Shown in pieces: positions 17,001 through 37,699 of a DNA stretch of 64,000 nucleotides. The first letter of the stretch is position 1. Each line of letters opens with the position of its first letter. The position numbers and the translations under genes are program-made. The stretch lies in IMG/VR virus record IMGVR_UViG_3300024261_000005; one strand, 5' to 3'. The notes beneath the pieces were generated by a model, which saw only the letters and a list, made by a program, of their open reading frames with translations, made no database searches and had not been told where the DNA came from. Source of the DNA: a virus.

Positions 17001-20000
17001 TTTCAACCCTGCAAGTATTTTTCTTTCAGAGGCAGTTTGACTAGTCTCACCAGCTCTAGGTAGGAACTTTATTTCATAGTTATTATTCTCATCTGTGATT
17101 TCAAAGTTGTATGATCTGTCTGTACGATAGATATCAGTTTTTAGATGATATTTTGTGTCGTTGGAGTAAACTTTCGTATCTCTATACAAAGTAGCTATAT
17201 CAGCATCATTTATGCCTAGCTTCTTTTGATTCTCTCTTAAGAACTTAATAAAGTCATCAGGCTTGGTACTAGTAATTTTATAGTTCTCTTCGCGCTCTTT
17301 CTCTCTAGTCTCAGAAACTACACCACTAGTTGTATTAGCAACCTCTCCCTCCTCTGTCTCATCTTGTTCTTCAACTTCAGGTTCGTTATCACCCTCTGCA
17401 GACTCCTCAATATTTCCAGCAGCTTTCTTTGTATAGGAACCTATAGCCTTCTCAACATCATTATTAATATGATCTTTTATTTGCTTTACATAAGTATCGC
17501 CCTGACCGGTACTACCCCAAAAGGCTTTCTTATTTCTCTTGTTGTTCTCCTTGTCGAAGATCTGTTGAACAGTTTTCGTATAGGGGTTTCCTTCGCTAAA
17601 CATAAATTGAATTGTTTTTACAAAATTGATTCCGTTCCCATCATCATGCAAGTATTCTGGATGATCATTTTGCCAGTCTAAAAAAATATCATTAATGAAA
17701 TCATATACCCGAAATGCATCGGCACCACCTTCACCAACCCAACGCCGTCTACCGCGTTTCAAGCCATGCTGTCCGCTTTTAATGCTTGCTGTAGTGACAT
17801 TAAAGTTGGCATCTAAGTGAATGAAGCCGTTAGCTCTGTATGGCTTCCTGCCCATAAATTTCGTGTCGTTAGCAATCGTAACGATATTTACACTAGTCAC
17901 CTCCCCGTTGGTATTAAGGGTCAATAAATCGTCTCCCGACTTGCTACCATAGATCCCTACGCCCAGACAATAACGTCTTTTTGGTCCGAATACGTCATTG
18001 AAGAATCTACGCTCTTCCAACAATTCTATTAAAGCACTCGCCTCCATGGCGTTCATATTGCTTATTCTAATATCTGCAGCAACACCAGTAAAATGATTCG
18101 ATTTGGTCTTTCTACTTTTCCCCGGATTCCATGCATCTAAAGTTGAAAACACATTAATTTTATATGATTTCTCTTTTAGTTTTCCATATTCATTTAATAA
18201 ATCCTGCAATGGATCCATAAAGTTTAAATAGAACTTATAGGCGTTCTCATCTATTGTTGGGCCTGATTTCCCCAAAGCGTTTTTAGCTCCTTCTTTAACT
18301 AACCTCCCTCTTAGATGCCGCTTTGCTTTTCCATAAAACTTGCTGGCACTAAAATATCTTGTATTCCAGTGGAAGGGCACATACTTCGCTTTTGAGTAGC
18401 TGTGCTTTATGGGTTCACCTTTGAGGGCACTACTACCACGAGACCCTGCTGATGACGGCGCATTTACATTGATATCAGACTCTCTTATTATAGATGCATA
18501 GCGGTCTAAATATTTTTCATCTACATCAGAAGTAACAGCTTCTCTAAGCTCTTCCTCATCATAAGGCTTACTCTCACTGAATCTAAAGTTTAAACCAACG
18601 GCTCCTGGAGAGCCTTCTATAGTAAACGTGTCAGTAGAAGAAATTATAAATCTTGGCTTAGAGTCTCTTATGTAGAGCGGCTGAGTTCCCTTATCGTAAT
18701 CAATGATTTTCTCATCCATGTCGGCATATTTAAATGAGCCAACAAGTTTAGTTATTAATGACTCTACTATTATATTTCCTGCATCAGGTATTTGAGGAAA
18801 GTTCTTTGCCATATAGGCTACATGTGCGCGAATACTTTCAAGCTCTTTTATCTTTGGTGGCAGCCCATCGGTGTGGCTTTTACCAATAAAGTTAAATTGA
18901 AATACTGGCTCTATGCTACCTAAGAATTGGTGCGTAGGATACTCATGTCCAAGTATGGGTATCGAACTTATTATGTTTCTTAATGAACAAGAAACATTTG
19001 TGATGTCTTGCTCAAACTTAGGGACTGAATCATAGTTATCATTATTTGTTTTTATGCCTGTAATGTTCTCAACATCTTTTTCAAAGAAATTGGAATCATA
19101 GCTTAGTAATCGAGCTCTTTGAAAAACGTTTTCCAACCCAGCACGATACATATACTGATGATAGTTTTCTTCATCTATCGCCTTCTTTATTCTATCCATA
19201 TAGATTGCATCATTAGAGTTTAAATAATTATCCCCCTGATCAAATTTATGATTTATGGATTTAATCTTTTTATTATATTCTTTAGAAGATTTAACTAGCT
19301 CTTCATTCAAGCCCTTACCTGTCAAACTCAACAGCATGTCATTAATTATTTGAGAGTCTGCAGTAACCGTAACCTCCTGGCTCGTTGGAAAATAACCAAG
19401 TATTGTGCCCGCAGGATTTATATCGTCGTTGTACGTATCGAAGAACTCAGTGAAATCAGCTATAAGTTCAATCCCCTCATATACGATTTTTTTCTCATCG
19501 TCTTTTCCTGTGTTCTGCACGACCGTTATAGTAGTTCCGTTATGAGTTATTTCCCCCGATATCACACTTAATACTGGTGACGCTGGACCTCCCGAGTGAC
19601 TTCGACTTATGTCTGTGATGGTGAATTTTTTATCAGCTTTTTCAGTTATAACAACATTATTTCCAGGTGGGTAATATTTTTCTATACTCCTATCTTCCAA
19701 AGGTCTTAAGTAAGTATAGTCTCTGCCCCACGCACTTGGAACCTCCACAGATATACCTCCAGAATGAACAGGGGTCATATCTGTCAAAGCTTTTGCTTTT
19801 TCTGACTTTAAACTATTAAAGAGATTATGTATCTCGGCTCTGTTTCCTTTTATCTTCTCTTGCTTTTTGGCTTCGTTTAAATTCTTTTTAACCGTGCCTT
19901 TATTCAGGGTTTTTCTATATCTAAATAGAAAGTTTCCTCCCAGTTCCAACGAAATGTATTCTTTGACAACTATCTTTGTATTGAGCCCACTCATAAGTAT

Positions 20001-20945
20001 CGCATGAGTTAGATTTCGCCTGAGTTCAATTAAGCCGTCATCTAATGTTTTTATATGATTATTTCCAGCCTGCACGCTTTTTAGTTCATGCAAACCGACC
20101 ATAGGTTCGTCGCCTACACCTTGCAGTAAGTTGAAGATCCTTTCATTAACTACAATTCTATTAACTGAGCCTTCTGCTGAAGCCGTCATCCCAATGGTTA
20201 TTCCAAAGTTTTCTTTTAAATATTTTAACTGTAAGAAATTGCAATACCTCTTGTATGCATTCGAATCCTTCGGGCTGGATGTTATTCCTACTCCAGCCTG
20301 AGGTACTATTTTAAGTTTCTCCCAATGGGGGGCCGCAAGATTGTTTGTCCTGTTCGAACCATTAATACTAAATTCTTGTTCACTCTTCTTAACAGGGGAT
20401 ACTTTTTGAGAACCTTCAGGAGGAAATACTGAATGCACGTATTCAGAGACTTTTTTTTCTGTAATCGTTTTATGAACGAAATCTTTTTTATAATTCAAGA
20501 CATTCCCGTAAGGCTTGTAGTTGAAGTATCTCAAATCCAACTCAACCAAGAACGCTCCTGGGGAGCTAGGATGGTTGCTGATGTTAAAGCCAAACAGCGT
20601 AAAGTAGTTCTTTTGTTTTGCAGACTTGTGCGTGTCCGATATGCTTTGTGAGAGAAAGTTATTTTCTACCATCACGAATGGATTATTTCTCACCTGAGAA
20701 ATAAGTCTATGTAAAAGCACAATTGAATCAGCTGGAAACGTAATACTTATCTGTGCGTGAAACACTCCGTTGCCAGAAAGCACCTTTGTTGACACTTTGG
20801 ATCTCAGAGTCTTCCACGAATATTCTAATCCTTCTTTATGCACCGATATCGCTGTTGGTGGTACATGCAACTCAATATCATTTATAATAAATCTTGATGT
20901 GAAATCATCTTTCAAAAGATCAGGAATATTATTTAATTGCCGCAT
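11082..20945 (-). CDS. Giant baseplate hub-like protein with Zn-peptidase M15 domain
   Basis: 3287 aa. Hub-like segments IVLRPGVTVQLRAGY...LISGKIADI and YEGSLTILGDTKINPWDVVILHD...VTHMFSFETGFITDI. M15 motifs SNHFTGVAAD (18070-18101) and GFIHLD (about 17810-17828). Several long hydrophobic segments. Confidence 0.75.
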   Translation of the reverse strand: MRQLNNIPDLLKDDFTSRFIINDIELHVPPTAISVHKEGLEYSWKTLRSKVSTKVLSGNGVFHAQISITFPADSIVLLHRLISQVRNNPFVMVENNFLSQSISDTHKSAKQKNYFTLFGFNISNHPSSPGAFLVELDLRYFNYKPYGNVLNYKKDFVHKTITEKKVSEYVHSVFPPEGSQKVSPVKKSEQEFSINGSNRTNNLAAPHWEKLKIVPQAGVGITSSPKDSNAYKRYCNFLQLKYLKENFGITIGMTASAEGSVNRIVVNERIFNLLQGVGDEPMVGLHELKSVQAGNNHIKTLDDGLIELRRNLTHAILMSGLNTKIVVKEYISLELGGNFLFRYRKTLNKGTVKKNLNEAKKQEKIKGNRAEIHNLFNSLKSEKAKALTDMTPVHSGGISVEVPSAWGRDYTYLRPLEDRSIEKYYPPGNNVVITEKADKKFTITDISRSHSGGPASPVLSVISGEITHNGTTITVVQNTGKDDEKKIVYEGIELIADFTEFFDTYNDDINPAGTILGYFPTSQEVTVTADSQIINDMLLSLTGKGLNEELVKSSKEYNKKIKSINHKFDQGDNYLNSNDAIYMDRIKKAIDEENYHQYMYRAGLENVFQRARLLSYDSNFFEKDVENITGIKTNNDNYDSVPKFEQDITNVSCSLRNIISSIPILGHEYPTHQFLGSIEPVFQFNFIGKSHTDGLPPKIKELESIRAHVAYMAKNFPQIPDAGNIIVESLITKLVGSFKYADMDEKIIDYDKGTQPLYIRDSKPRFIISSTDTFTIEGSPGAVGLNFRFSESKPYDEEELREAVTSDVDEKYLDRYASIIRESDINVNAPSSAGSRGSSALKGEPIKHSYSKAKYVPFHWNTRYFSASKFYGKAKRHLRGRLVKEGAKNALGKSGPTIDENAYKFYLNFMDPLQDLLNEYGKLKEKSYKINVFSTLDAWNPGKSRKTKSNHFTGVAADIRISNMNAMEASALIELLEERRFFNDVFGPKRRYCLGVGIYGSKSGDDLLTLNTNGEVTSVNIVTIANDTKFMGRKPYRANGFIHLDANFNVTTASIKSGQHGLKRGRRRWVGEGGADAFRVYDFINDIFLDWQNDHPEYLHDDGNGINFVKTIQFMFSEGNPYTKTVQQIFDKENNKRNKKAFWGSTGQGDTYVKQIKDHINNDVEKAIGSYTKKAAGNIEESAEGDNEPEVEEQDETEEGEVANTTSGVVSETREKEREENYKITSTKPDDFIKFLRENQKKLGINDADIATLYRDTKVYSNDTKYHLKTDIYRTDRSYNFEITDENNNYEIKFLPRAGETSQTASERKILAGLKRYYGQEMLVRSASTKTNTKANAWIINPNSHKAGESLVKTVKKLHQSSTFKVDKSELTSKTAQRDAMKVQLLASNTMLKSFTELASVILTEPYLYTDTKEEFIKEMQFIQSQLYGFSVLPAYYNVIEKLFTGKCTIETGQAALSTRVDKSSVALGGAGLVLTATRAIAAETAILSGGWSLAGQAVIELVVIGYAFSTGLSDDAQLQLNRVRGGIIDHTEALQGRASFQEYLKYFVDNKSSILGDSFKLEDDGVKNAGEFLEGVSDADQVAYSISQHIKPIYADLSIFNTFNKVAGNLDPTSRAMNLIQASLKGNSNLIDDDGIVDKKLSNFALADRITIANMKEYLQFLYMFPEHRDDGDLATNEQNARHIIEELSPFTHYRYNPSLDNDKFDPNAYLYGGDVMQFIGVDGLASAPIRVKNGKWTDRDNIKKYPFLLTHQLTKSDGTPGPRSNGVKHFFDSKKAALKSQQRTKLAYLRSLLKAILDENLHLNADIVEKTGDATLLRVLDGATVFELLETNSYPDIDLPQDPRTPYNNSNLSPCFYYHDQNDTKEILLKDRQKKEMAAANKIIDSSIQFQKGLRAGIFTGSEEKLRGDKEKKEIVNELVDSTEILRTVSDFLIGDEENVQTPAYIAPIAIALNNNDKVLGGSTPIAVTTSAQSVTTVGAQKYSVNKAVAQIDATNKGITGGKFDEKKKQFGEVNSMFGSQLGFKTSGKMDLKAQVDKVNPKIGRTLGLGTQQKYNKQDILDICEDSSGNINKLRTIKEAFPTFRLYIVEEDAIYTDRLTAFDDFFYYNSVISFNVHNSRELASSVATIQVQNISGLLDGTKKNVLRDVDLGEDVEERALEDEGNFIDSIVLRPGVTVQLRAGYESNSNELDILISGKIADINYAQNNTICNLTVQSFGVELEALRKGGEAGTNSDEPGVFYSTHQLLGSMMMSDELKHFGRSKVGAVFQIGEFKDFSLDLDLYKKESSFNFSLSRGFFDWVRDNTFGIGIGVGVLTLGLPALKMAGSTKLVTTVGSYFKPTAGGKLATFGAVTAKIFAWVPTKLSWANPFGVNKIAQQLIIKRAQFLATSMTPQAGAAKIFIANFDDALEFLIRAQGNLGTSMLPRVARTQLRVLGGMSSLLNTGKFAANQAAHGRINGTVVTVFKYIANVLSGGKVNIAPELGEEFLKSIVLKNKGFGALGLSGVAPSRLGKTWLGTKMGGNIIIGAGTSITLPLAIGVSGFATAALLSGLDIIIDSAKYAWNAMMGSFAADKNKLKKKKLLSPQDDNIFAPHPAQYMSNLGTSYSYLESLWSGIELFSKEAWLSGKDIINTSTFGLINISSSKKLETLKLNPFKLIDKRMDVKKHENPFVLTGQTIWQILHECTLRHPGYIYGVRPYGNSLEYRVFFGVPNQRYWCKRITNTEIRKLNKIFMALDTMGEAGLLKENDIKIIFPSAYAQYKESVTNNENEQVLQRFFTQKAYDYYISKTKDRFVPFRQFHLVSSKRNLIGNNIIVSSHNMINAVSVNFINTFTERLKGEEKGSADVNSDVDPSLSKYNQTMETLKFRANNNVGMSQLKEKTVTYRNIVGASNAIRYGLGELLYGTRKMYEGSLTILGDTKINPWDVVILHDDITNMYGPVEVCSVTHMFSFETGFITDIETNALVTANEELSHPVITQSLVYETRAKVFDEYNSLYELGGTAEERKASVKKIVEDEVEEFIEEEMTTNAGFFRKHGGAGLTIDFGGLSDEKRKKLVDQIVEKTMDSYEEDGPSFLRDFVPGDAAVPKELTDMVADVGTLAGGLSLTYLGGEALRNRFATNMGVSIFGGGLWKMGLFFAGSVALAKSSNLLNSTISTSYSSGRLGKNLFRQHIMSRMENGNLIQLYPLVRDGMPLVTGGFEEVDESEKWNNMLGYIFNATSTAVKGYLDRQQELKAYGKDVITAYDKNELNSMKSSIVVNAAKVADAIGIKNADSLLGYMYLDD

Positions 20946-20946
20946 A

Positions 20947-23900
20947 TTAATCTCTCATCATTTTATTCATATAAGCGTTTCCTATTGGTCTTCTATTATC
21001 ATTAATGGTTAATGACGCTTGACCTCCAGAAGATACAAAATGCTTGCCCATGCTTTGGGCTGCTGATAGGTTGGGGGCTTCACCGAACATTCTAATTGAA
21101 CGATTCAATGATACAGTAGAGACTCCGCTATTAATAGGCCTTTCATAGAAATTGTCTGCGCCTGCAATCCTAGAGGGGCTTGGCTGCTTATGCTCTCTAG
21201 AGAAATTCTGCTGAACTGCTCTTTGGCTCAAGCTCTCTCCAGCTTTCAAAGCTTCTCTTGAAGTTCTGTCTGAAAACTTTGCACCTGGCTCTAAACTTCC
21301 TATCTCTTGATTGGCTCCAATAGCATAGGAGGCTAATAAGCCTCCAGCAATAACTCCAGCAAGACCCTTCCCTCTACTAATTGAAGCAGCAAGTGTTTGC
21401 TTTGCACTTTCAGCCCTGGTGAATATATCTTGCAATGCTTCTATATCACCAGTTATGAGACCACCTTCCATAGAATGCCCTCGATTCAATAACTGAAACA
21501 ATTGCTCATGACTGAACCGACTTGATGATTCCAGCATATTGCCAATTCCGCTGGATGAAGTAAACTTGTTCAAATTGTGTTTTTTAACATTTGCAGACAT
21601 CGCATCCCAAGAATCAAACATTTCTTGTACACTCAAGTTCACATTTTCAAGCCCTCTCTTGAAACTTGCAGTCGCATCCCCCTCAGCGATGTTATTAAAT
21701 TTAACACTACTCATCTTAATGCTTAGGTCTGCGTCTGGGCCTTCCAAAATAGTTCCTTTAAAGATCTTCTCTTGGAAGAAGCTTTTAATCGCACTGCCTT
21801 CTCCCGATTCAAAAGAAGTCTTTAATGCTGTCATATATTCTCTAGAAATATCAGCAGCAATTGGAAGCTTTTTACCTTTTATTCCAAGCACCTCTTGGGC
21901 AACTGATATCAATGCAGCTCCAGCTTTTATTCTTTTGAATTGATCTCCAAAATCTCCACCAGTATCGTCTGCAGCCGCCTGAGCTAACCCCAGCATACCG
22001 GCCTTAACCTGAACGTCGAGTCCACCGATACCCTTAACTATTTGCTCTTTTTGAAATTCATCAACTAGACTTTGTGCAAGTGTAAGTTTCGAAGCGCCCA
22101 TGCGCTCACCTAACTTCTCTACACCTTCGCCAAGTACGTGCATGCTGCTTAGAAACTCAGCGCCATAGGTTATCATCTTCTCGGGATTTACATGGCCTGC
22201 TGAAATCTTATTCCTAAGCGTCTTATCAGTGTCAAAGAAGACTTGATAAGGATCTGCGTCATAGTCACCAATACCGAATCTAGTAAAATCCATTCTTCCT
22301 GAATACTTCGATACAACTCCTGTAGCCTTGTTTTCAATATCCATGTCAAGTTCAATTTGTGGAAAGCGGATTGTACCACCACCATGCTCCCCGAACTCCT
22401 GATGTGCACCATACATCTTATGGAAGATCCTTCCAAAGGCGTCTTCAACGTCGGCGTTAGCCTCACCCCGGTTTATTTTTTGCTCAATCTCGGCTAAGTG
22501 AGAGCCCTTAGTCACGCTCCCTCCGTGGAATTCATCCAGAATTCTCAAATCCTTGTCAACGTATTCAGCACCTTGAAGTTTTTCTCCAGTGAATTCAGCA
22601 GCATCTTTAACGCTTGGGTGCTTTTCCATTTGAAGTCGTTCAACCTCACTAAGCTTCATATCTAAAGAATCTTCTCCCTTCAAATCTTTGATAGGAGCTA
22701 GAGTCTCCTTTATTTCAGCTTGCTCTGCTTGAAGTGCTTTTATTTTTTCGTCTCTTTTATGCAACTGACCATATGTTTTATCCTGGGGGTCGTGCATCCG
22801 ATTTAATTCAGCCTCAATCTCTCTATGCCTAATCCTATTTAAAAAGAAATCATCCTCAGGACTGACCTGTTCTCTTCCGAATCGAGGATTAACTACGCCT
22901 GTTAATTGCTCAAAAGCATTTATACGAGATACCTTCGGAGCAAATGCAATCCTGTCCTGGTTTGCCTCAATTGCTTTCGGACCTATTCCTTTCACTCTGG
23001 ATTGCAAATCATCAAATGATTTAAACTTCTCCTTTTTTCTTGCCGCTATTATATTATCTGCAACCTCAGAGCTTATAGCTTTTCCACGAGATGGTTTAAG
23101 AGTTTCTAAAAGCTGCTTTTTGCTAGCTTTGTTAATGTCGATTCTAGCATGTCTTGTAGAGGCAGCGCCTTTCACATCCTCAACATAGGTTCCATATTGA
23201 ATTCGTTCAATTTTTCTATTGAACTTTTCTTTCCCCTCCCCCCCCATTCTAGTGTTTAATCTCTCCACTTCGTTAGCTCGGTAAGTCTTGCCATTTGCGG
23301 AGCCTTCTTTTTCAAATGTCTCACCAAGCGCATCATTTATTTTATCAAACTGCGTAACTTGGTAAGTACTCCTCTGAGAGGTAAATCCCTCAGCATTCAA
23401 TCCGAAGAAGCTACCCATGCGATTTAAGAAGTGACTAGCTTCGTCCCTGTTCTCGAAGTATCTATAACGATAGTCTTTTTCATACTGAATAACGCCATCT
23501 ACCTTTAGGGGCACCTTTATCTTTCTACCCGTTGGGCCTGGCGCCATGGTCGTCTTCTCTTTTCTTTCACCAGCGAAATCCTTACCTAAATCATGCAAAG
23601 TCTCTTCATAGATCTCCTCTACTGATTTCTGTACATTTCCTAAAGATACGTCATCTCCACCGAGAATCTTCCTTCCATAATAGTCAACATTAAATTCATC
23701 TTTAGCCAATTGGCCCCTAACATCGTTTAATTGCTTCTCTTGCTTTTTCATCAGCTTGTTAAGCACCTCTAATTCTTCCTCTACTGCTTCCAATTTTCCT
23801 GGAGACTGTTTTAAGAGTGGGTCTCCACTTGTCATTGCGTTGTAAAGTCTACGCTGTTCTGACAATTCCCGCATCTCATCGCTGGCAAGTTTAGTCTCAA

Positions 23901-26900
23901 CTCCTCGTTTAGTGAGCCTCGTCTCGTCGATCTCGTCTATGAGCTTCCCTTCTCTGTGCAATCTTCGATTATGGGCATTGTCTAGTTCTCTGTCTAAGAC
24001 TCCCATCTTCCTTTGATCTCGCTCAATTGAATAGGAATCTCCCGCTTCCCCTTTATAGAGTGCTCTTTTTCTCTCCATGTATTGCTCATAACCACCCTGC
24101 TTGATTTCTCCTTTCTCTTGGTTCAAGAGTCGTCTATGCTCTCGATAGTTATCAAGCTCGTCACCCTGAAGCTTTTCGTACTCAGTTGAAATCTGATCTC
24201 TTCTATCATATATGTTGCTTCGTTTTTCTACAGTGTTGATTTTCTCATGATTTTCTAAGAGAGCATCTACTCTTGGCTGTTTAGCTAATTTTCGAACCTC
24301 TTTCAAATGAGCTTTATAGTCATCAGTACGCTCTTGCCCTGGCTTATTCCTTAAGAGTTCAAGTGGTTTTAATTTATCAGTAAAATCATACTGATACAAA
24401 CCCATACTAGCCCAAACGTGAGCGAAACCCATTAGCGGGTTTCTTATTGTAGTTCCAGAGGTGCCCGTCTTCTTCGCTCGATGCATCCCTAGGAAGAAGT
24501 CTTTTAAAGTTTGATTCATCAATTTTCTTGACTCTTCCTTGACGGAGGTGCTTCCTTGCTGAGTTAGGTGTTTACTCAGAGCGGACTCATATTTTGTCAT
24601 TCCGTCAAGGAACGCCTGCTGATCTAGAAAGGCGACGTAGCCTTTCTCTTGATTTACTACCTCAGTTAAACTTCGGTTTATCTTGGCATTAATAAAAAGA
24701 TTGTCGCTGAAAACAGTACCTTCCATATGCTTACCAGGGGTTTTCCCTAAGGTGAACCCACCACCCATGTAAGACCCAGAGCCAGTCACTCGACCTGACA
24801 AGCTGTGTTTCACTGCAGCGCCTGCAACTTTACTTAAAGACTTCCGAACAGTGGCAAAGCCTTTCATTGCGCTGTCAATTTGATCCGCATCTTCTCCTGC
24901 GTCTTTGAGACCAGATAAAGACGACAATAAGTCGGTTACATTACGACCGTACTCCGCCTCTATCTTTATAGTCTCTTGTGATGATTTTATTTCATGTCCA
25001 ATAAACCCTTTAAAAGTGTCTTCTCCAGGTAGGAAAATCTCCTTCTTGCCTCCAGTTTGTTCATATAACTTACTCAAGGCATCTTTGGAAAGTCCCATAT
25101 CCTCTAGATTTATTATGTTGCCGCTTTTAACTTCAGAGAGTTTGCTTACTACCTGCCTTTCTTCTCCTTGTCCTAGTTCAAGTAAGTTAGTCACTTCTTC
25201 ACGAGACATCGTTCTTACGTCTTTCAATCCTGATATCTGCTCTTGAATGTTTTCAGCACTCGCTTGGCCTAAAGATTCTTGAGCCACTTTCATACCAATA
25301 AGACCAGAAGCCCTATCTTCGAATCCCTCCATCCTCATCATATATGAGGAAAGGTAACCTGTTGCTTCTTTGCTATCCATCCCCCAAAAACCCCTAAGTG
25401 AGGTGTAAAGATAGTTTGCGAATCTGGGCTCAGCTTTAGCTGTATTCCTTGCAAGATTCGTATGGGGTGTGCCAGCGGTAGCGGAGGCTGCGCCAATCAC
25501 AACTCCTTGTTTAGCCATCTCGCCAGTCTTTTTTAAGTAATTGTCGGCCTCTGCTCCAGTAATTCCAGCAGTTTCCAAACCTGCTTTAATTTTATTCTGA
25601 AAATATTCCAAATCCATTCCATGTTTGCTGTTAACTGCTCTATCGTGAGCGAGAGATAATACTAAGCCAAAGTTATCTGCAGATATCCCCTCCTTACCTG
25701 CTCTCTCTGCAATAGTTTCAAAGAACTTACCTAACGTGCCTGCTTCTCTCTGCTTAACTGTTGCTTGATCTAAGCTTGTAATTGTAGCACCCTTCAGACG
25801 ACTGTTTACTTCAGCTAGTAGCTTGTCACCATCATTAGTAGCCTCTAGTTGTTTCATTAAGATGTCTTCATCCATACCTAGCATTCTCATACCACCGTGA
25901 ATTTGCGTCCTAAGATAAGTTCCAGATTTTTCAACTTGGGCTGTCGTTGTTAATAGCGTATTCGCTATTTTACCACCGAATCTACTTGGATCAAAAAATG
26001 CCTCCCCTACGTCTTCTAAGCCTAGGCTACTTAATTTATTAATCATACTTCTTTGGCTTATCGTCAACGTAGTGTCTTTTGCTAAAGCTGAAAACAATTT
26101 ACTATGAGACACGTCTTGTTCAATCTTACCAATAATGTGATAGCGATCTCTGTTTGTCTCCATGCTCTTTTCACTTAAGCCCAAGGTGAAGCGACGTAGG
26201 CCTTGGTGCTTTTTAATATGTACCACCCTGTCATCTTGTCTACCCAGAACAGCACGTCCCTCTGAATCTCCAAATTGCTTAAAGAAATCGTCAATGTCAA
26301 AGTCATCTCCATCAATCGTACTACCAATAGTTAAAAACTTCTGCGTATCGTCTCTTCTTGCTTCTAAAAGCTTAGTCATTAATTTGCTTTGACCAAGACC
26401 CTCTCTATTCACAGTCTTGCTTATATCCTGCTTCACTTGAATAGTACCGCCCATGTAGCTCATACCTTCGGCAAGGCCAAGCTTTGCTGTATTCTCGCGA
26501 CCTTTGAAAAGCATTATTGCCCCCATATTAACTCCACGGGCATGCTTTCCAAGCTTAGCGTCGCTGGTTACCCCAATTAATTCTGATCCCGTGCCACTAA
26601 CTTTAATGCCACCCCCAGCAGGAATACCCGCTTTATAAGCGGCTATCTCTTTTTGTTTCTTCTTTAATTTACTTCTTTCCCAGAACGGATTGGGCGCGGA
26701 CGCCACTCTACTTTCCAACAGTTCCTCTTCCTTAACAAGCTTTGCTAAGTGCGCTTTTTCCTGCATCACTTTAACACGACTTCTTTGTCCAAAAGTAGAG
26801 TCAGGGGTGCTACCATCAAAGCCAGTTGCCACTTCGGGACGTCCATGAAGCTGAGACCCACGCGCAGTTTGTGGAAGCAAACTCCTATCAAGATGCCCAT

Positions 26901-28389
26901 AGCGTTGCATCAAATTGAATGCTGTGGGAGTCAAATCGCCACTCTTTGTTCGCAATGATTCAACATGACCAACGACACGGGTTCTATTAAGATCAAATGG
27001 ATCTACAAATCTAGAGGTTAAAGTTTGCGCACCTGAAGTACCCCCGTAACCTTCCTGTGTGTACTGCAGTATAGCTTTAGTTACTTGTTCTCTATCTTTG
27101 GCTGCAAAATGTTCTAGTCCTGCAATCTTATGTATATTGGACTGCAAGGTTCTGGAAGATGCAATTGCAGATTGCAAATCTTGATCGATTAGCGAGACTA
27201 CCTTACCGTTCACAGTTCTAGTTTCATTCAAACCTTCCATCATTGCTCTGGGTGCTTCAATGGACATTGATCTAATATAATCGTTGTATTGATTTATATT
27301 TCTAGTACTAAAATTCTGTAGTGATGTTCTGTTTTCTCTTAGTAATTGGAACAAGTGGTCTTCTAATGAAACGGTGGCTTTCTTAATTGCGTCGTCTGCA
27401 CTTATTCCTCCTGGTCTAGATAATCTCTTCAAATCCAGTTCAGGGAATAACTTGGTGGCGTCAATAACACCACCAGCTGTTTGGTATCTTGTTGATAAAT
27501 TTTCAGTTCCCCTGATAATTTTAGCACCAGTTTCTCCGTGTTCTTGCAAGTCCAATGCTACATTCTGATATCTGCCTCCAGCATGCTGTATTCGAGCATA
27601 TACTGAAAGCTGCCCGCTCGTTTTTGCTTTGCCACCAAACTCATCAATTGAAACAAGGCTAATATTCTTAGCACCAGGAACCATATTTTTAAGTTCAGCA
27701 AACTTCTTCTTCCCAACAACAGACAGGCTGTCTTCCCTAGCAGACTTCCAGCTTACTGTACTTGTTCCTTCAGCTGTAAAGTCTTTCATGACGGAGTCGA
27801 ATTGACCTCTAGTCTTTAATGCGGAACTATGCTGCCTTTTAAAGGCTTCAAGCCTTGGGCCACTTGTCTCTATGTTTTGCTTATAGAACTGTATCGCCGT
27901 ATTCTTATCGTTCTCCTCAATAGTGCCCCCTTTGCCTACACCCTCATAAAGGTTTTCAATTGATGCTTTTAAGCTACTAGAGTCATCTACTAGCTCATCA
28001 CTAGCACTATCAAATAGCGCTGATAAGAACGCTCGCGCACCTTCTGCATCACCCCCCTGCTTAAATAACTCCTCTAACTTATCGTCACTTAGTATAGTAG
28101 TTTTAAACTTCTCTAGACTGGTTCTCTTGCTGGCGTCGAGTATAGCTTTTAATTCATCTGCGTCGCTTCTGAGGGCACGTCCAGCAGCACCAAGCTCATT
28201 GCCTGATGCGGAGGAGTTTTTTAAAACTCCATATGTTTTTTTAACTCCACCAGTTAAGTTTATGTTCTTGTTCAGGTAATACGCCGTTCCAGCAACAGCA
28301 ACACCGCTAAGTAGCGTTCGCCCACTATTCCTTATTTCCTGTTTTTCATTCTCTCTAGTTTGCTCATTTAACAGATTTATTAGTGACAT
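20947..28389 (-). CDS. Giant tape-measure-locus protein with putative two-barrel RNA polymerase motifs and ComEA-type HhH domain
   Basis: 2480 aa. SGRVTGSG (R1200), IRNP (R1316), HhH domain IDINKASKKQL...FKSFDDLQSRVKGIGPK (about aa 1749-1815), and TIRFP...GDYDADPYQVFF (D2042/D2044/D2046). Hydrophobic segments near both ends. Confidence 0.65.
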   Translation of the reverse strand: MSLINLLNEQTRENEKQEIRNSGRTLLSGVAVAGTAYYLNKNINLTGGVKKTYGVLKNSSASGNELGAAGRALRSDADELKAILDASKRTSLEKFKTTILSDDKLEELFKQGGDAEGARAFLSALFDSASDELVDDSSSLKASIENLYEGVGKGGTIEENDKNTAIQFYKQNIETSGPRLEAFKRQHSSALKTRGQFDSVMKDFTAEGTSTVSWKSAREDSLSVVGKKKFAELKNMVPGAKNISLVSIDEFGGKAKTSGQLSVYARIQHAGGRYQNVALDLQEHGETGAKIIRGTENLSTRYQTAGGVIDATKLFPELDLKRLSRPGGISADDAIKKATVSLEDHLFQLLRENRTSLQNFSTRNINQYNDYIRSMSIEAPRAMMEGLNETRTVNGKVVSLIDQDLQSAIASSRTLQSNIHKIAGLEHFAAKDREQVTKAILQYTQEGYGGTSGAQTLTSRFVDPFDLNRTRVVGHVESLRTKSGDLTPTAFNLMQRYGHLDRSLLPQTARGSQLHGRPEVATGFDGSTPDSTFGQRSRVKVMQEKAHLAKLVKEEELLESRVASAPNPFWERSKLKKKQKEIAAYKAGIPAGGGIKVSGTGSELIGVTSDAKLGKHARGVNMGAIMLFKGRENTAKLGLAEGMSYMGGTIQVKQDISKTVNREGLGQSKLMTKLLEARRDDTQKFLTIGSTIDGDDFDIDDFFKQFGDSEGRAVLGRQDDRVVHIKKHQGLRRFTLGLSEKSMETNRDRYHIIGKIEQDVSHSKLFSALAKDTTLTISQRSMINKLSSLGLEDVGEAFFDPSRFGGKIANTLLTTTAQVEKSGTYLRTQIHGGMRMLGMDEDILMKQLEATNDGDKLLAEVNSRLKGATITSLDQATVKQREAGTLGKFFETIAERAGKEGISADNFGLVLSLAHDRAVNSKHGMDLEYFQNKIKAGLETAGITGAEADNYLKKTGEMAKQGVVIGAASATAGTPHTNLARNTAKAEPRFANYLYTSLRGFWGMDSKEATGYLSSYMMRMEGFEDRASGLIGMKVAQESLGQASAENIQEQISGLKDVRTMSREEVTNLLELGQGEERQVVSKLSEVKSGNIINLEDMGLSKDALSKLYEQTGGKKEIFLPGEDTFKGFIGHEIKSSQETIKIEAEYGRNVTDLLSSLSGLKDAGEDADQIDSAMKGFATVRKSLSKVAGAAVKHSLSGRVTGSGSYMGGGFTLGKTPGKHMEGTVFSDNLFINAKINRSLTEVVNQEKGYVAFLDQQAFLDGMTKYESALSKHLTQQGSTSVKEESRKLMNQTLKDFFLGMHRAKKTGTSGTTIRNPLMGFAHVWASMGLYQYDFTDKLKPLELLRNKPGQERTDDYKAHLKEVRKLAKQPRVDALLENHEKINTVEKRSNIYDRRDQISTEYEKLQGDELDNYREHRRLLNQEKGEIKQGGYEQYMERKRALYKGEAGDSYSIERDQRKMGVLDRELDNAHNRRLHREGKLIDEIDETRLTKRGVETKLASDEMRELSEQRRLYNAMTSGDPLLKQSPGKLEAVEEELEVLNKLMKKQEKQLNDVRGQLAKDEFNVDYYGRKILGGDDVSLGNVQKSVEEIYEETLHDLGKDFAGERKEKTTMAPGPTGRKIKVPLKVDGVIQYEKDYRYRYFENRDEASHFLNRMGSFFGLNAEGFTSQRSTYQVTQFDKINDALGETFEKEGSANGKTYRANEVERLNTRMGGEGKEKFNRKIERIQYGTYVEDVKGAASTRHARIDINKASKKQLLETLKPSRGKAISSEVADNIIAARKKEKFKSFDDLQSRVKGIGPKAIEANQDRIAFAPKVSRINAFEQLTGVVNPRFGREQVSPEDDFFLNRIRHREIEAELNRMHDPQDKTYGQLHKRDEKIKALQAEQAEIKETLAPIKDLKGEDSLDMKLSEVERLQMEKHPSVKDAAEFTGEKLQGAEYVDKDLRILDEFHGGSVTKGSHLAEIEQKINRGEANADVEDAFGRIFHKMYGAHQEFGEHGGGTIRFPQIELDMDIENKATGVVSKYSGRMDFTRFGIGDYDADPYQVFFDTDKTLRNKISAGHVNPEKMITYGAEFLSSMHVLGEGVEKLGERMGASKLTLAQSLVDEFQKEQIVKGIGGLDVQVKAGMLGLAQAAADDTGGDFGDQFKRIKAGAALISVAQEVLGIKGKKLPIAADISREYMTALKTSFESGEGSAIKSFFQEKIFKGTILEGPDADLSIKMSSVKFNNIAEGDATASFKRGLENVNLSVQEMFDSWDAMSANVKKHNLNKFTSSSGIGNMLESSSRFSHEQLFQLLNRGHSMEGGLITGDIEALQDIFTRAESAKQTLAASISRGKGLAGVIAGGLLASYAIGANQEIGSLEPGAKFSDRTSREALKAGESLSQRAVQQNFSREHKQPSPSRIAGADNFYERPINSGVSTVSLNRSIRMFGEAPNLSAAQSMGKHFVSSGGQASLTINDNRRPIGNAYMNKMMRD

Positions 28390-28394
28390 ATTAT

Positions 28395-31300
28395 CTAACC
28401 TCTTATAGCTAAGCTTAACATTGAAAGAATTTCAGAACTTCTATCATCATTATAATATATTTCTGCTCTACTATTCTCATATGGAGCATGAGAAGTATTA
28501 ACAAGCATTCTACTAAAATCCAGTCCAGTGGAATTTTTCATTCCTCGCACCAGTCTATTTCTAGCGGAGTTTCTGGACGGACCTGGGTTTTCGTACATAA
28601 ACATGTCAGAACCTTCTAAGAATGGACGCCTGGACGCTCTACGCACCTGTGAGTTCCATACGTCATAGTCATGCGTTTCGGCACCACTGTTATCTATGTA
28701 CTTGACTTTCACATCTTCCATGTCAACGTCTTTGTGCCATCCGATCCAGTCAGGTGGCGGCAAGGGCTGGTTTATAAAATGGTCTTCGACCTCAGAAAGT
28801 TTATCGAACATGTAGTTCTGATCTATTGAGCCTTTTGGATCTGCACCTATTAGAGACATCTTCTCGCCAGAATCCATCCGATTCCACACAGAGGTATATA
28901 AATGCTTCTGATCTTCAGGCACTAACTCTAATATTCTTTCTCGATCTTTTCCAGATGCATTCGCAAACGAATCAAAGAAGCGCTTCTCCGCATTAGGTAG
29001 CGACAAATAAAGCCCTAGAGCGTCTCCATTTGGGTTGACGCCAGTCCTGGTTTGACCAGCCATACGCATATAACGTGTTTTGTCATTTGCGTTTTCTGCA
29101 TTCTGAGCTAGCTTCATGTATTTTAAAAATTGTAATTTATCGAAATGCTCGTCCAGTTCTTCTCTTTTTTGAACGTGCATTGGTTTTCCATCCCAGCCCA
29201 TTAAATTCGCAGCGCTATAAAATGCTGGTCGGAACCAATCCCTTACATGCTTGTCCCAAAATGCATTAGTAGTCCCATATATTCTCTCTTGTTCATAAGT
29301 CTCAATTGCAGAGCGAGTTCTACCCAGTAGCTTCTGAGTAGGCCTGAAGCCGCCTGGCATTAAGTATTCAACTGGAGCAGTAACTTTTCGAATTATAGAT
29401 TCTGCACCTTGATACATTGATTTCGTTATGTCAGAAACCACGGGTATCTTGATCGCATTCTTGGCGTAATCAAAATCTCTCGTTGAAGCTAGTCGTTTTT
29501 GATGTGCCTCTGATGCATTGTCCAGTATCCTGTTTTCAAGCTCCGTCGTTAAGCCTGCAGCTCTTCGCTCCATAAGTTGATTTCGAAGCCGCATAGTCTC
29601 TCTGGACTTAGATGATAAATCAGATAGTATTTTATACTTGTGTACGTCTGGGTAGTCTTCAGGATCCATTCCCTTTAACTCAGGATTTAAAGCCTCGTAT
29701 GCCTTTCCTGGCATTCTTGCGAACCCGTTTGGTATCGACCTGTAAGGGTCGCCCCTCTTGTAGCGTGCTGGCATCCAAGATGGCATTGTATTAGCGATTG
29801 GATTGTACTTTTCGATATCTGATCTTGGTCTAGGAAGCATTCGCCTTATAGGCTCTGAGGTGAATGCCATGCCACCAAGATCCATATCCCAATAATCTAA
29901 AATTGCAGAGTCCATATCGGACGAACTAGCCATCATGAATTCTCTAGTACCAACAGTCTCTCTTCCTGTTACTAATTTTTGTAAATAGTTTTTAGTGTAC
30001 CCAGTGAGGCCTTCAATCTCTCTAAATTGATATTGCATACCCCCAATCATTGAAGTCATTGAATATGGACTTTTAGGGGTGCCTGGACCTATTTGACCAA
30101 GATCTGAACTTGAACCAAACTCTTGTAAAAATGCTGTCTCTCTCACTCCTCCTGAATTTATTTGCGACAGTTCTTCTTCATGCATTAACTTCGGTGGCTT
30201 TATTATCCTGCCAATAGTATTTGAAAGTATCCCTCCTAGGACGGGGACGTCTTCAAATGCAGCACCTGAAATTGGATAAGGCCTATCGTAATAGTTCTTC
30301 TCTTCAAGATGGTAAGTGAAGTTCTTCAAGAAAAATCTAGTTAATGGTGAATGCTCATCGGTTTCATCCCCCCAGACAGCTCTTTCTTTTGCTTGGGTCA
30401 TTAAGGATACGTATGCGTGCGGTCTAAAATAACTTGTTTCGTTTCCCTCTAACGGGGTTCCACCACCTTCCCACCAGCGACCCTTTTTAATTTCAACTAA
30501 TTTCTTTCCTGAATAAATCTCTTTTAATTCATCAGGATTCTCCATCGTACCTAACAACCCTCCTGTTAGGAGTTGGTGTGCTCCAGCGACGCCTAAGAAT
30601 AACGCGCCAAATCTCCTAAAGATTGGCGAGGCATTTAACCCCTTGGCAAACTCATCATAAGTCTTAGTAACCTCGTCTCCACCTATGTTTCTAGTTACTT
30701 CCCCTTTCATGGATGCGCCGAAAAACGAATGATATATCTCTGCGCCAAAGATCTCAGTTCGCCTTAACATATTATCAAGTAGAGATCCGCCTTGATATTT
30801 ATTATTTATAATTTCAATTCTATCAAGTAGAGATCTATTTAGATCATTCTTATTATGGTATTCATCGAAAAAGGCTGATCCGACTTTAGCATCCATGGAG
30901 TAATTGAAGTCTAGTATCCTTTTTTCAATTTCAGAAGTATCGGTTATACCTGCACCTTTAAAAAGATCTTTATTTTTGTTAAAGAAATTCATTAAATCTT
31001 TTGTTTGCGTTTTACTGAGATCGGCCTTCCCTTTTCCATCCAAGATGTCATTCACTCGACGAGTGTAGTCCATATACTGTGGGGAAGTTTCGGAAATACC
31101 ACCTAGTTCTTTGGCCAGTGGATTGTATTTTTGAAATGTTTCGTTAAACTCCCCGCCAATCTTAACTGGCGTTAAGGCATCGTATACCTCGCTAGCATTT
31201 ATTTGAGCTTTTGTTAATGGAATCTTTATATCCCCTGAAGCACCACTAACAAAGCCAACCCGATCTTTAACTAGCTGTGGAAGCAATTTACTTGCGAACT

Positions 31301-35860: not shown

Positions 35861-35869
35861 TTGATACTC

Positions 35870-37624: not shown

Positions 37625-37699
37625 AGAACCTCCACGCAGCAAGAGAAAATATTTTATATATTATCTATAGCACTTATTGCGAGGAGTTATCTATATCAA

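What the first reader, a model, noticed from the sequence alone, without database searches (positions are those of the whole stretch)
22385..24400. ~690-aa insertion with a ComEA-type helix-hairpin-helix domain inside the putative catalytic barrel
Seen: RNP and DYDAD are about 725 aa apart, against about 35 aa in cellular beta'. The gap holds a long charged coiled-coil-like region and a clear ComEA/HhH domain (IDINKASKKQL...ADNIIAARKKEKFKSFDDLQSRVKGIGPK, nt 22945-23145). No intein termini are visible. Established: ComEA HhH domains bind dsDNA non-specifically. Inference: a tethered DNA-binding arm that could clamp the template or help pull the genome into the cell during ejection.
Basis: partly seen in the sequence, partly recalled or inferred. 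Interest (0 to 1): 0.75.

Follow-up and report, generated by a model that had tools for sequence, protein, structure and literature searches.

The report
DNA-binding arm inside phage RNA polymerase barrel
A giant protein in the tail-gene block of an uncultured ~160-kb marine phage has the fold of a one-chain cellular-type RNA polymerase, and one hairpin loop of its catalytic barrel has grown into a ~610-670-residue charged arm carrying a ComEA-like DNA-binding domain; the loop is real and fast-evolving, but what the arm does is untested.

Summary
In the 2480-aa ORF (window 20947-28389, minus strand), RNP (aa 1316-1318) and DYDAD (aa 2042-2046) lie 726 aa apart. Pfam HHH_3 matches aa 1749-1814 (E 2e-9, above the curated cut-off).

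The two motifs belong to one catalytic barrel. R-x-P, D-x-D-x-D and two upstream lysines are 95-100% conserved across 86 family representatives. An AlphaFold model of a short-loop homolog (pLDDT 86, pTM 0.83) matches QDE-1, RDR2 and the largest subunits of cellular RNA polymerases. A designed double-psi barrel aligns 86/86 residues across the span that holds both motifs.

The insertion sits in the hairpin after the R-x-P strand, nested in a small helical subdomain. Across the family this loop runs from 55 to about 1430 aa and falls into at least 10 sequence-unrelated classes. It is short in basal branches and was lost again in one close relative.

The HhH domain occurs only in the window's small clade. 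It is eroding there: the first hairpin is degenerate in the window copy.

The DNA-tether function is plausible but inferred. A coiled coil was not shown.

The scan had already found this polymerase family, with split barrels, on two other genomes.

The parts
20947..28389 (-). Whole gene: 2480-aa single-chain two-barrel RNA polymerase-like protein. It lies in the tail module between the tube paralogs and the baseplate.
   Evidence: ORF. Context. Family of 17 close homologs and 122 representatives. Fold evidence on a homolog.
26068..26256 (-). First barrel (DPBB-B, beta-like), aa ~712-774. It carries the two conserved lysines K764 and K771.
   Evidence: The lysines are 99% and 95% conserved over 86 representatives. 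They lie in the beta-rich segment 31-93 of the model, mapped to the window protein. The QDE-1, RDR2 and P74 gp62 matches start at model residue 76.
24391..24801 (-). N-terminal part of the catalytic barrel (DPBB-A), aa ~1197-1333. It includes the R-x-P 'Pro-gate' loop (RNP, aa 1316-1318, nt 24436-24444) and the strand that follows it.
   Evidence: R is 99% and P 100% conserved. Strands 632-639 and 647-655 of the model are mapped. The beta'/Rpb1 barrel matches start at model residue ~516. The role of the R-x-P loop is described in PMC9508822.
22384..24390 (-). Everything between barrel strands beta4 and beta5 (aa ~1334-2002).
   Evidence: The flanks are conserved and constant in length, while this stretch varies from 55 to ~1430 aa. 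P0001 and P0002 are 86-98% identical in the core but only 33-54% identical here.
24343..24366 (-). First helix of the basal helical subdomain (PLELLRNK, aa 1342-1349). This subdomain is shared by the whole family.
   Evidence: Model helix 664-671 is mapped. The short subdomain is homologous across 40 distant representatives.
22510..24342 (-). Clade-specific expansion (aa ~1350-1960). It consists of charged, low-Pro/Gly stretches with conserved islands at about aa 1575-1610, 1650-1670 and 1820-1840.
   Evidence: It is alignable end to end only with P0002-P0008, at 24-34% identity. The conserved islands are visible in the 8-sequence alignment. Charge profile.
22948..23145 (-). ComEA-family-like HhH domain (aa 1749-1814). 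The second hairpin is canonical (VKGIGPK). The first hairpin is degenerate, with a 6-residue insertion.
   Evidence: Pfam HHH_3 E 2e-9, 37.8 bits against a cut-off of 27. NCBIfam ComEA models are the best hits but fall below their cut-offs. Alignment to homologs. Net charge is +5/+6 in the two 50-aa windows aa 1701-1750 and 1751-1800.
22393..22506 (-). Returning helices of the basal helical subdomain (aa ~1962-1999).
   Evidence: Model helices 699-710 and 716-739 are mapped. H1996 and G2000 are invariant among the 17 close homologs.
22234..22383 (-). C-terminal part of the catalytic barrel (aa 2003-2052). It comprises GGG, the strand TIRFP, two further strands, the metal-binding loop DYDAD (aa 2042-2046, nt 22252-22266) and the strand PYQVFF.
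   Evidence: The three Asp are 100%, 99% and 100% conserved, and distant members read GDFDGD. Model strands 746-792 are, mapped. The designed barrel 7dww_A aligns 86/86 residues over model 522-793.

Best explanation
The 2480-aa protein is a single-chain two-barrel (cellular-type) RNA polymerase encoded in the tail module of an uncultured ~160-kb contractile-tailed marine phage.

Anatomy (shown by homology and modelling). In the catalytic barrel (DPBB-A), the strand carrying the R-x-P Pro-gate loop is followed by strand beta4 and a small helical subdomain. The chain then returns through strand beta5 to the D-x-D-x-D metal-binding loop. In the window's clade that helical subdomain has been expanded from within by about 610 residues. 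The added material is charged stretches, a few conserved islands and one ComEA-like HhH module.

Position (inferred from topology, not measured). Both catalytic loops sit at the active-site end of the barrel, so the hairpin that carries the arm should point away from the active site. That would explain why catalysis tolerates inserts of 55 to ~1430 residues.

Function (inferred). The arm is an accessory, fast-evolving appendage. Its basic HhH module makes sequence-independent contacts with duplex phage DNA. It would raise DNA affinity or hold the enzyme on the entering genome, in the way the tethered alpha-CTD helps bacterial RNA polymerase and HhH domains help PolC/DnaE and LigA. It is not part of the core catalytic machinery.

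My odds:
- Insertion lies inside the catalytic barrel of a two-barrel polymerase fold: 0.85.
- HhH domain is real: 0.9.
- HhH domain binds DNA in this protein: 0.5.
- The arm specifically clamps the template or drives genome entry: 0.25.
For: Motifs:
- K..K, R-x-P and D-x-D-x-D are 95-100% conserved over 86 full-length representatives. Distant members carry the canonical GDFDGD.

Fold:
- The model of homolog P0011 aa 600-1620 with a 41-sequence alignment has pLDDT 86.2 and pTM 0.83.
- A search of 48,161 PDB representatives that does not use Foldseek puts QDE-1 first (Z 9.7, rmsd 4.1, 266 aligned).
- Next come Pol I, maize RDR2 (Z 8.6), vaccinia, Pol II, archaeal, P74 gp62 (7.9), Pol IV, Pol III, Mtb beta', ASFV, PhiKZ, AR9 and P23-45 gp96 (6.5).
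- A designed double-psi barrel aligns 86/86 residues over model 522-793, the span that contains both motifs.
- All 50 listed rows of the re-aligned Foldseek set are chains from RNA polymerase entries. They carry the usual beta'/Rpb1/A190 chain labels and lengths, and their ranges place NADFDGD opposite the model's D-x-D-x-D.

Insertion:
- The flanks are constant in length and the loop runs continuously from 55 to ~1430 aa.
- The core tree puts short loops in the basal branches.

HhH domain:
- Pfam, NCBIfam.
- Homolog P0007 carries two HhH modules in the same arm and passes the ComEA-repeat cut-off.
- The segment is basic.

Precedents:
- Virion or tail-fused two-barrel polymerases, and the proposed coupling of transcription to genome entry: PMC10770324 and the phi14:2 gp66 preprint.
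Against: - The barrel was modelled on the short-loop homolog P0011, not on the window protein. Closure around the 670-aa insert is inferred from 38-71% identical flanks.
- Z scores of 8-10 are only moderately above the tool's stated background of 7-8. Foldseek gave no hit at E<=0.001, only AR9 RNAP at probability 0.93. No sequence method links the family to known polymerases.
- In the window copy, the first HhH hairpin is degenerate.
- The HhH domain is decayed in P0002 (75% identical overall) and deleted in P0003.
- P0011 lacks the expansion altogether.
- The other insert classes hold no recognisable DNA-binding domain.
- The direction in which the arm points relative to the DNA path could not be measured, because no model coordinates were available.
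- Virion packaging is inferred from gene position only.
Confidence: 0.55

Rival explanations
1. The loop is simply a permissive surface site. It tolerates expansion and accumulates drifting sequence, including a captured HhH module, and the arm has no specific function in transcription.
For: - At least 10 BLAST-unrelated insert classes occupy the same loop.
- Insert identity is 33-54% where the core is 86-98%.
- The insert was secondarily lost in P0011, next to P0010 which has 650 aa.
- The HhH domain is eroding in a different way in each lineage.
Against: - Within the clade the insert length is held at 542-670 aa.
- Several islands are well conserved across 8 members.
- Phage genomes rarely keep about 2 kb of useless coding sequence.
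- P0007 gained a second HhH module in the same arm.
- Codon composition is fully ameliorated.
Confidence: 0.25
2. The arm serves the virion rather than transcription. It would be an extended helical element that lets the giant protein be stowed in, or threaded through, the tail or capsid. It might anchor the protein to the ejection channel or membrane, or contribute to length measurement at the tape-measure locus. On this reading the HhH domain holds the end of the packaged genome.
For: - The gene sits where a tape-measure gene is expected, between tube paralogs and baseplate, flanked by giant proteins of 1464 and 3287 aa.
- No canonical tape-measure gene was recognised.
- The protein has hydrophobic segments near both ends.
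- P23-45 gp96 is a polymerase fused to a tape measure (PMC10770324).
- Insert length varies 25-fold, as ruler proteins do.
Against: - No coiled-coil signal above shuffles.
- The close pair P0010/P0011 differs by about 570 aa of insert, which would imply very different tails in near-identical phages.
- Nothing measured here relates insert length to tail length.
Confidence: 0.15
3. The hypervariable arm is an interface with the host. It would bind a host factor, or act as a target or decoy in a defence arms race, which drives its rapid turnover. On this reading the HhH fold is incidental.
For: The arm diverges much faster than the rest of the same protein. Whole inserts are replaced between clades.
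Against: There is no direct evidence, and no known defence or anti-defence domain was tested or found in the arm. Divergence is too deep for a dN/dS test with the sequences at hand.
Confidence: 0.05

Closest known systems
Thermus phage P23-45 gp96 (PDB 8H2M) and the paired non-virion enzyme (P74 gp62, 8F5M); Chaban et al. 2024, PMC10770324
   Same: Single-chain two-barrel RNA polymerase encoded in the tail module at the tape-measure position. It has a DFDGD-type loop and almost no sequence similarity to cellular enzymes. Structural matches to the model here: Z 6.5 for gp96 and 7.9 for gp62. That paper notes lineage-specific insertions in DPBB-A.
   Different: P23-45 is a siphovirus, and its polymerase is the N-terminal part of a 5002-aa tape measure. 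No several-hundred-residue insertion between R-x-P and D-x-D-x-D and no HhH domain is described for it in the text read here. There is no detectable sequence relation to the window protein.
Neurospora QDE-1 and plant RDR2 (PDB 7Y7P, 7W84)
   Same: These are the best structural matches (Z 9.7 and 8.6). They are one-chain enzymes with both barrels, an R-x-P Pro-gate loop and a DYDGD-like metal loop. I recall the plant RDR loop as reading roughly GSDLDGDIYFV, close to this family's IGD(F/Y)D(G/A)DIYQV; that is from memory and was not tested here.
   Different: They are eukaryotic RNAi enzymes. In QDE-1 the R-x-P loop is at residues 962-964 (PMC9508822); the position of the metal loop, about 45 residues later, is from my own recollection. 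The window protein has 726 residues in between. They have no HhH arm.
crAss-like phage phi14:2 gp66 (PDB 6VR4)
   Same: Giant (2180 aa) virion-packaged one-chain two-barrel polymerase with a non-glycine fourth position in the metal loop (DFDID; here DYDAD).
   Different: It comes from a podovirus-type phage. It was not among the 50 listed structural matches. No HhH arm is described for it.
Lineage-specific sequence insertions of bacterial RNA polymerase (for example SI3 in the beta' trigger loop); from general knowledge
   Same: Large, clade-restricted domains inserted into catalytic elements without destroying catalysis.
   Different: They have different sites and folds. None is known to me in the beta4-beta5 hairpin of DPBB-A, and none spans 55 to ~1430 aa within one family.
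ComEA C-terminal HhH domain (Pfam PF12836, TIGR00426) and tethered HhH modules of other nucleic-acid enzymes (RNA polymerase alpha-CTD, PolC/DnaE, LigA); the functions are from general knowledge
   Same: The same domain family by profile match. P0007 also gives weak partial matches to PolC-type polymerase III models at its HhH modules. The proposed role is a non-specific duplex-DNA contact tethered to a polymerase.
   Different: The domain is embedded in a loop of a catalytic barrel rather than at a terminus. The window copy has only one canonical Gly-hairpin and falls below NCBIfam's ComEA cut-offs.

Membership tests
Two-barrel (DPBB) RNA polymerase superfamily | D-x-D-x-D metal-binding loop in barrel A | tested here: met
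   DYDAD at aa 2042-2046. The three Asp are 100%, 99% and 100% conserved over 86 representatives, and distant members read GDFDGD. The fourth position is Ala, not Gly, in this clade.
Two-barrel (DPBB) RNA polymerase superfamily | R-x-P 'Pro-gate' loop upstream of the metal loop in the same barrel | tested here: met
   RNP at aa 1316-1318. R is 99% and P 100% conserved. It lies at the end of a model strand. The motif is defined in PMC9508822.
Two-barrel (DPBB) RNA polymerase superfamily | Second barrel (B) with two conserved lysines | tested here: met
   K764 and K771 are 99% and 95% conserved and 7 residues apart, in a beta-rich domain. Pol II Rpb2 K979 and K987 are 8 apart. Residue-level superposition was not available.
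Two-barrel (DPBB) RNA polymerase superfamily | Overall fold matches solved polymerases, and the barrel is formed by the segments carrying both motifs | tested here: met
   15 of the top 23 PDB representatives are RNA polymerases, with Z up to 9.7. The designed barrel 7dww_A aligns 86/86 residues over model 522-793. All 50 listed re-aligned Foldseek rows are chains from RNA polymerase entries. This was tested on homolog P0011, not on the window protein, and the Z values are moderate.
Two-barrel (DPBB) RNA polymerase superfamily | Bridge helix and trigger loop after barrel A | tested here: inconclusive
   Long helices follow the barrel (model 809-913), with conserved K/E/K/G/D positions. Matches to beta'/Rpb1 extend through them. 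No residue-level assignment was possible.
Two-barrel (DPBB) RNA polymerase superfamily | Template-dependent RNA synthesis | not testable with these tools
   This needs purified protein.
ComEA-type HhH domain (PF12836 HHH_3 / TIGR00426) | Profile match above the curated threshold | tested here: met
   Pfam HHH_3: 37.8 bits against 27. NCBIfam TIGR00426: 22.6 bits against 53.1, so not met for the window copy. Homolog P0007 scores 53.2 against 53.1.
ComEA-type HhH domain (PF12836 HHH_3 / TIGR00426) | Two helix-Gly-hairpin-helix motifs | tested here: not met
   Only the second hairpin is canonical (VKGIGPK). The first is replaced by LKPSRGKAIS, with a 6-residue insertion relative to homologs. P0005 and P0007 keep both.
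ComEA-type HhH domain (PF12836 HHH_3 / TIGR00426) | Sequence-independent binding of double-stranded DNA | not testable with these tools
   This needs a binding assay on aa ~1700-1830.
Intein | Hint domain and splice-junction residues at the insert borders | tested here: not met
   No Hint or intein Pfam family at E<=1. The borders are conserved helices of a family-wide subdomain.
Coiled coil | Heptad periodicity above chance | tested here: inconclusive
   A home-made heptad scan gave a maximum of 0.72 against 0.725 for the 95th percentile of shuffles. No dedicated predictor or model of the arm was available.

The most novel reading that the evidence does not exclude
The beta4-beta5 hairpin of the catalytic barrel is an evolvable docking site. 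Injected phage polymerases would use it to mount interchangeable accessory arms. In this clade the arm would be a ComEA-like DNA grip that lets a promoter-naive, sigma-less enzyme seize the incoming genome end and couple transcription to DNA entry. That would be a new way of giving a two-barrel polymerase its DNA-loading function.
Probability: 0.2. Interest if true: 0.8.

Novelty: new variant of a known kind. Interest (0 to 1): 0.6.

Why it matters
Two-barrel RNA polymerases are among the most conserved enzymes known. The stretch between the Pro-gate loop and the metal-binding loop is about 35 residues in the bacterial and Pol II enzymes compared here. A family in which that stretch ranges from 110 to nearly 1500 residues (a loop of 55 to ~1430) shows how far the catalytic barrel can be decorated. 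It also gives natural with-and-without pairs, such as P0010 and P0011, for asking what such arms do.

If the HhH arm does bind DNA, it would be a natural counterpart of engineered HhH-polymerase fusions. It would also hint at how injected, factor-less phage polymerases find and hold their template.

The family has no sequence-detectable relative among 50,697 GenBank phage records, so it also marks an unstudied infection strategy in abundant marine phages.

Tried and rejected
Sequence links to known polymerases all failed:
- phmmer of the whole protein against PDB.
- A profile of the C-terminal block against PDB.
- Pfam at E<=10 on short-loop members.
- PHROGs.

Searches of GenBank phages:
- tblastn with the whole protein found nothing.
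- tblastn with the barrel region at E<=10 gave only chance hits.

Structure work that did not help:
- A first AlphaFold model from 17 sequences was too poor (pLDDT 59, motifs below 50), and its Foldseek search was meaningless.
- Foldseek on the good model gave no hit at E<=0.001; only AR9 RNAP stood out, at probability 0.93.
- phi14:2 gp66 (6VR4) was not among the 50 listed structural matches.

Work on the arm itself:
- The ESM Atlas search with the insertion gave no usable hit.
- A single-sequence PDB search with the HhH segment gave only weak hits to DUF655-type proteins (E 0.04-0.06).
- The intein reading was rejected (no Hint domain).
- Recent foreign acquisition was rejected (GC3 equal to the rest of the gene).
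- The coiled-coil claim could not be supported.

Other checks:
- A paralogous second polymerase was not found in the complete relative G001, either by protein search or by a motif pattern. These are weak tests.
- No whole genome is held for the window.
- Model coordinates are not exposed, so the direction of the arm relative to the DNA channels could not be measured.

Full report
**1. The observation**

The finding lies inside a single 2480-aa ORF on the minus strand, window 20947-28389. RNP is at aa 1316-1318 and DYDAD at aa 2042-2046, 726 residues apart. Pfam HHH_3 matches aa 1749-1814 with E 2e-9 and 37.8 bits against a gathering score of 27.

The best NCBIfam families for that segment are the two ComEA models. 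TIGR01259 gives E 8.8e-6 and TIGR00426 gives E 8.4e-5, but both score below their curated cut-offs. The identical protein is on record on 18 contigs, 15 of them in the 50-200 kb class. The gene is therefore intact and not an assembly artefact.

The gap is strongly charged, at 36-48% D/E/K/R per 50 aa, and the HhH region is basic. My crude heptad scan did not exceed shuffled sequence. 'Charged' is confirmed and 'coiled-coil-like' is not. No intein family was found, and GC and GC3 of the insert equal the rest of the gene.

**2. Genomic context**

All large ORFs of the window are on one strand and form a structural module. In order, they are:
- terminase (59289-61499)
- portal (50090-51583)
- capsid (45335-46666)
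- a sheath-like protein (38628-41555)
- three tube-like paralogs (34919-38602)
- three giant ORFs of 1464, 2480 and 3287 aa, the last with lysin-like matches
- a baseplate wedge protein (8499-9743)

No canonical tape-measure protein was recognised. A relative of the phage is a complete 161,781-bp genome with direct terminal repeats.

**3. The two motifs are conserved catalytic-type motifs**

Seventeen homologs of 1814-3046 aa were found. In their alignment, RNP, H1324, Y1334, D1335, H1996, G2000, GGG2003-2005, P2010, R2032, D2034, G2041, D2042, A2045, D2046, Q2049 and D2053 are invariant.

A profile of the C-terminal block found 122 representatives among 1.84 billion proteins. I aligned 86 full-length representatives. 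The conservation is:

| Element | Conservation over 86 representatives |
|---|---|
| R of R-x-P | 99% |
| P of R-x-P | 100% |
| Three Asp of D-x-D-x-D | 100%, 99%, 100% |
| Two upstream lysines (K764, K771 here), 7 residues apart | 99%, 95% |

Most distant members read GDFDGD, the canonical polymerase signature. The window's DYDAD is therefore a derived variant with Ala at the fourth position. phi14:2 gp66 is the published precedent for a non-Gly fourth position, DFDID.

The R-x-P loop is the 'Pro-gate' loop of two-barrel polymerases. It is at 962-964 in QDE-1, and its Arg corresponds to R446 in Pol II and R425 in E. coli. The two barrel-B lysines correspond to Rpb2 K979 and K987 (PMC9508822).

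**4. Fold**

Sequence methods see no link to known polymerases. A first model built from 17 sequences was poor.

A second model covered the short-loop homolog P0011, aa 600-1620 (L001:5607-8669), with a 41-sequence alignment. It reached mean pLDDT 86.2 and pTM 0.83.

VIA-align against 48,161 PDB representatives, without Foldseek, ranked the following:

| Match | Z | Notes |
|---|---|---|
| QDE-1 | 9.7 | rmsd 4.1, 266 aligned |
| Human Pol I largest subunit | 8.7 | |
| Maize RDR2 | 8.6 | |
| Vaccinia RNAP | 8.4 | |
| Pol II | 8.2 | |
| Archaeal RNAP | 8.1 | |
| P74 gp62 | 7.9 | |
| P23-45 gp96 | 6.5 | |
| Designed double-psi barrel 7dww_A | 6.4 | aligned 86/86 residues, rmsd 2.9, over model 522-793 |

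Pol IV, Pol III, Mtb beta', ASFV, PhiKZ, AR9 and plastid enzymes also appear in the list. The span 522-793 contains both R-x-P (638-640) and D-x-D-x-D (782-786).

Re-aligning Foldseek's top 1000 gave 50 listed rows that are all chains from RNA polymerase entries, with the usual beta'/Rpb1/A190 chain labels and lengths. Examples are model 517-906 against E. coli beta' 344-928, and model 517-814 against Mtb beta' 419-567. These ranges put NADFDGD opposite the model's Asp loop.

The Z values are moderate, and the tool warns that 7-8 is a common best score. The near-exclusive enrichment for polymerases, the full coverage of the designed barrel and the three conserved motif sets together make the two-barrel assignment strong. 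For the window protein it is inferred through flanks that are 38-71% identical.

**5. Where the insertion sits**

In the model the order of elements is:
- strand 632-639, ending in R-x-P
- strand 647-655
- a five-helix subdomain, 664-739
- GGG, 743-745
- strands 746-750, 753-759 and 765-772
- the Asp loop, 782-786
- strand 787-792

Mapped to the window protein:
- Barrel A is aa ~1197-1333 plus aa 2003-2052.
- The basal helical subdomain contributes aa 1342-1349 on the way out and aa ~1962-1999 on the way back.
- The clade-specific expansion is aa ~1350-1960.

Both R-x-P and the Asp loop are at the active site, so the hairpin between them should leave from the far end of the barrel.

**6. Evolution of the loop**

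The flanks are constant in length. The distance from the barrel-B lysine to R-x-P is about 480-600 aa in most members (up to about 780), and the stretch after the Asp loop is about 430 aa in nearly all. The R-x-P to Asp-loop distance runs continuously from 110 to 1493 aa, and 46 of 86 representatives lie at 110-147.

BLAST clustering of the loop segments gives the following classes:
- one basal class of 55-159 aa, shared by 40 distant representatives
- a class of 9 members (795-1325 aa)
- the window's class of 8 members (542-670 aa)
- a class of 4 members (345-391 aa)
- several pairs and many singletons, including two of about 1400 aa

The window's insert aligns end to end only with P0002-P0008, at 24-34% identity. 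The cores of the same proteins are 55-93% identical. For P0002 specifically, the core is 86-98% identical and the insert 33-54%.

A midpoint-rooted tree of 1296 core columns puts short loops in all basal branches and the expansions in one derived clade. There is a separate jump to about 1400 aa in P0047/P0050. There is also a secondary loss in P0011 (84 aa), which sits next to P0010 (650 aa; the two proteins are 71% identical). The insertion is therefore lineage-specific, repeatedly remodelled and dispensable for whatever the core does.

**7. The HhH domain**

A local HMM built from the clade's HhH segments finds the domain only in P0001, P0004-P0008 and the fragment P0018. It finds a weak remnant in P0002 and a second copy at a different place in the arm of P0007. 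Pfam scans of 24 large-insert members found no other domain in the loop.

In the window copy, the first Gly-hairpin is replaced by LKPSRGKAIS with a 6-residue insertion, while the second (VKGIGPK) is canonical. In P0004, P0006 and P0008 it is the other way round. P0005 and P0007 keep both hairpins. The domain is real, ComEA-like by profile and basic, but its canonical two-hairpin form is not under uniform constraint.

**8. Mechanism**

Shown:
- The anatomy above.
- The conservation pattern.
- The domain identity.

Inferred:
- The protein is a virion-delivered polymerase. This rests on its position in the tail module, the hydrophobic segments near both ends, the giant neighbours, and the precedents of P23-45 gp96, phi14:2 gp66 and N4.
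- The arm is an accessory appendage whose HhH module contacts duplex DNA without sequence preference. It would help an enzyme that enters the cell without host factors to hold the incoming genome.

The authors of the P23-45 paper propose coupling of early transcription to genome translocation for such fused enzymes. Tethered HhH modules on RNA polymerase alpha-CTD, PolC/DnaE and LigA are functional analogies from general knowledge.

The rival readings are a permissive loop without specific function, a virion-assembly or ruler role, and a host-interaction surface. They are listed with their tests in the Rival explanations section.

**9. Novelty**

The family is unknown to Pfam, PHROGs and PDB sequence searches and has no tblastn relative in 50,697 GenBank phage records. 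I found no paper describing it.

The scan itself has already met the same family on two other genomes: the 2395-aa and 3046-aa homologs. Follow-up agents there also concluded that it is a tail-module two-barrel polymerase with a split barrel. I read those notes after reaching my own conclusions, and they agree.

The insertion is best filed as a new variant of a known kind: a lineage-specific insertion in a two-barrel virion polymerase. It is unusual for its site (between the Pro-gate loop and the metal loop), its size range, and its ComEA-like module.

Noticed in passing
window 40245-40259 (-), inside ORF 38628-41555: A second exact match to the degenerate D-[FY]-D-[GA]-D pattern (DFDAD, about aa 433) lies in the N-terminal half of the 975-aa sheath-like protein. 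0.01 matches are expected by chance in the window. It is probably coincidence, but it was not examined.
   Followed up: no
model of L001:5607-8669 (homolog P0011): A Foldseek search of predicted viral structures gave probability-1.0 matches to uncharacterised proteins of cultured phages: Acinetobacter phage vB_AbaM_ME3 and Microcystis phage MaMV-DC. It also matched an uncultured Caudovirales protein at 21% identity. These may be remote relatives in cultivable systems. tblastn sees none of them.
   Followed up: partly
L001:3810-9254 (P0011), compared with P0010: P0011 is 71% identical to P0010 but has 84 aa in the loop where P0010 has 650 aa. This is a natural arm-deletion variant, seen on a single Logan contig.
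   Followed up: partly
homolog P0015: The metal loop reads DFVAD, with the second Asp replaced by Val, in one representative. It may be an inactive copy or a sequencing error.
   Followed up: no
homolog P0007, aa 1452-1495 and 1700-1758: The same arm carries two HhH modules. The extra one is inserted in the charged region where the other members have none.
   Followed up: partly
window 26290-26304 (-), aa 696-700 of the same protein: A second D-x-D-x-D string (DFDID) lies just upstream of barrel B. It is not conserved as a triad in the family, whose consensus there is GDDYxIDDFF, so it is not a second active site.
   Followed up: partly
window 28395-32789 (-) and 11082-20945 (-): The flanking giant ORFs (1464 and 3287 aa) have no Pfam match. 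The 3287-aa ORF matches PHROG 'endolysin' and another giant-protein family. The 1464-aa ORF has Gly-rich hydrophobic segments. Together with the polymerase they look like an ejected-protein trio.
   Followed up: no
window 34919-38602 (-): [quoted passage not shown] By position they are tube-like paralogs.
   Followed up: no
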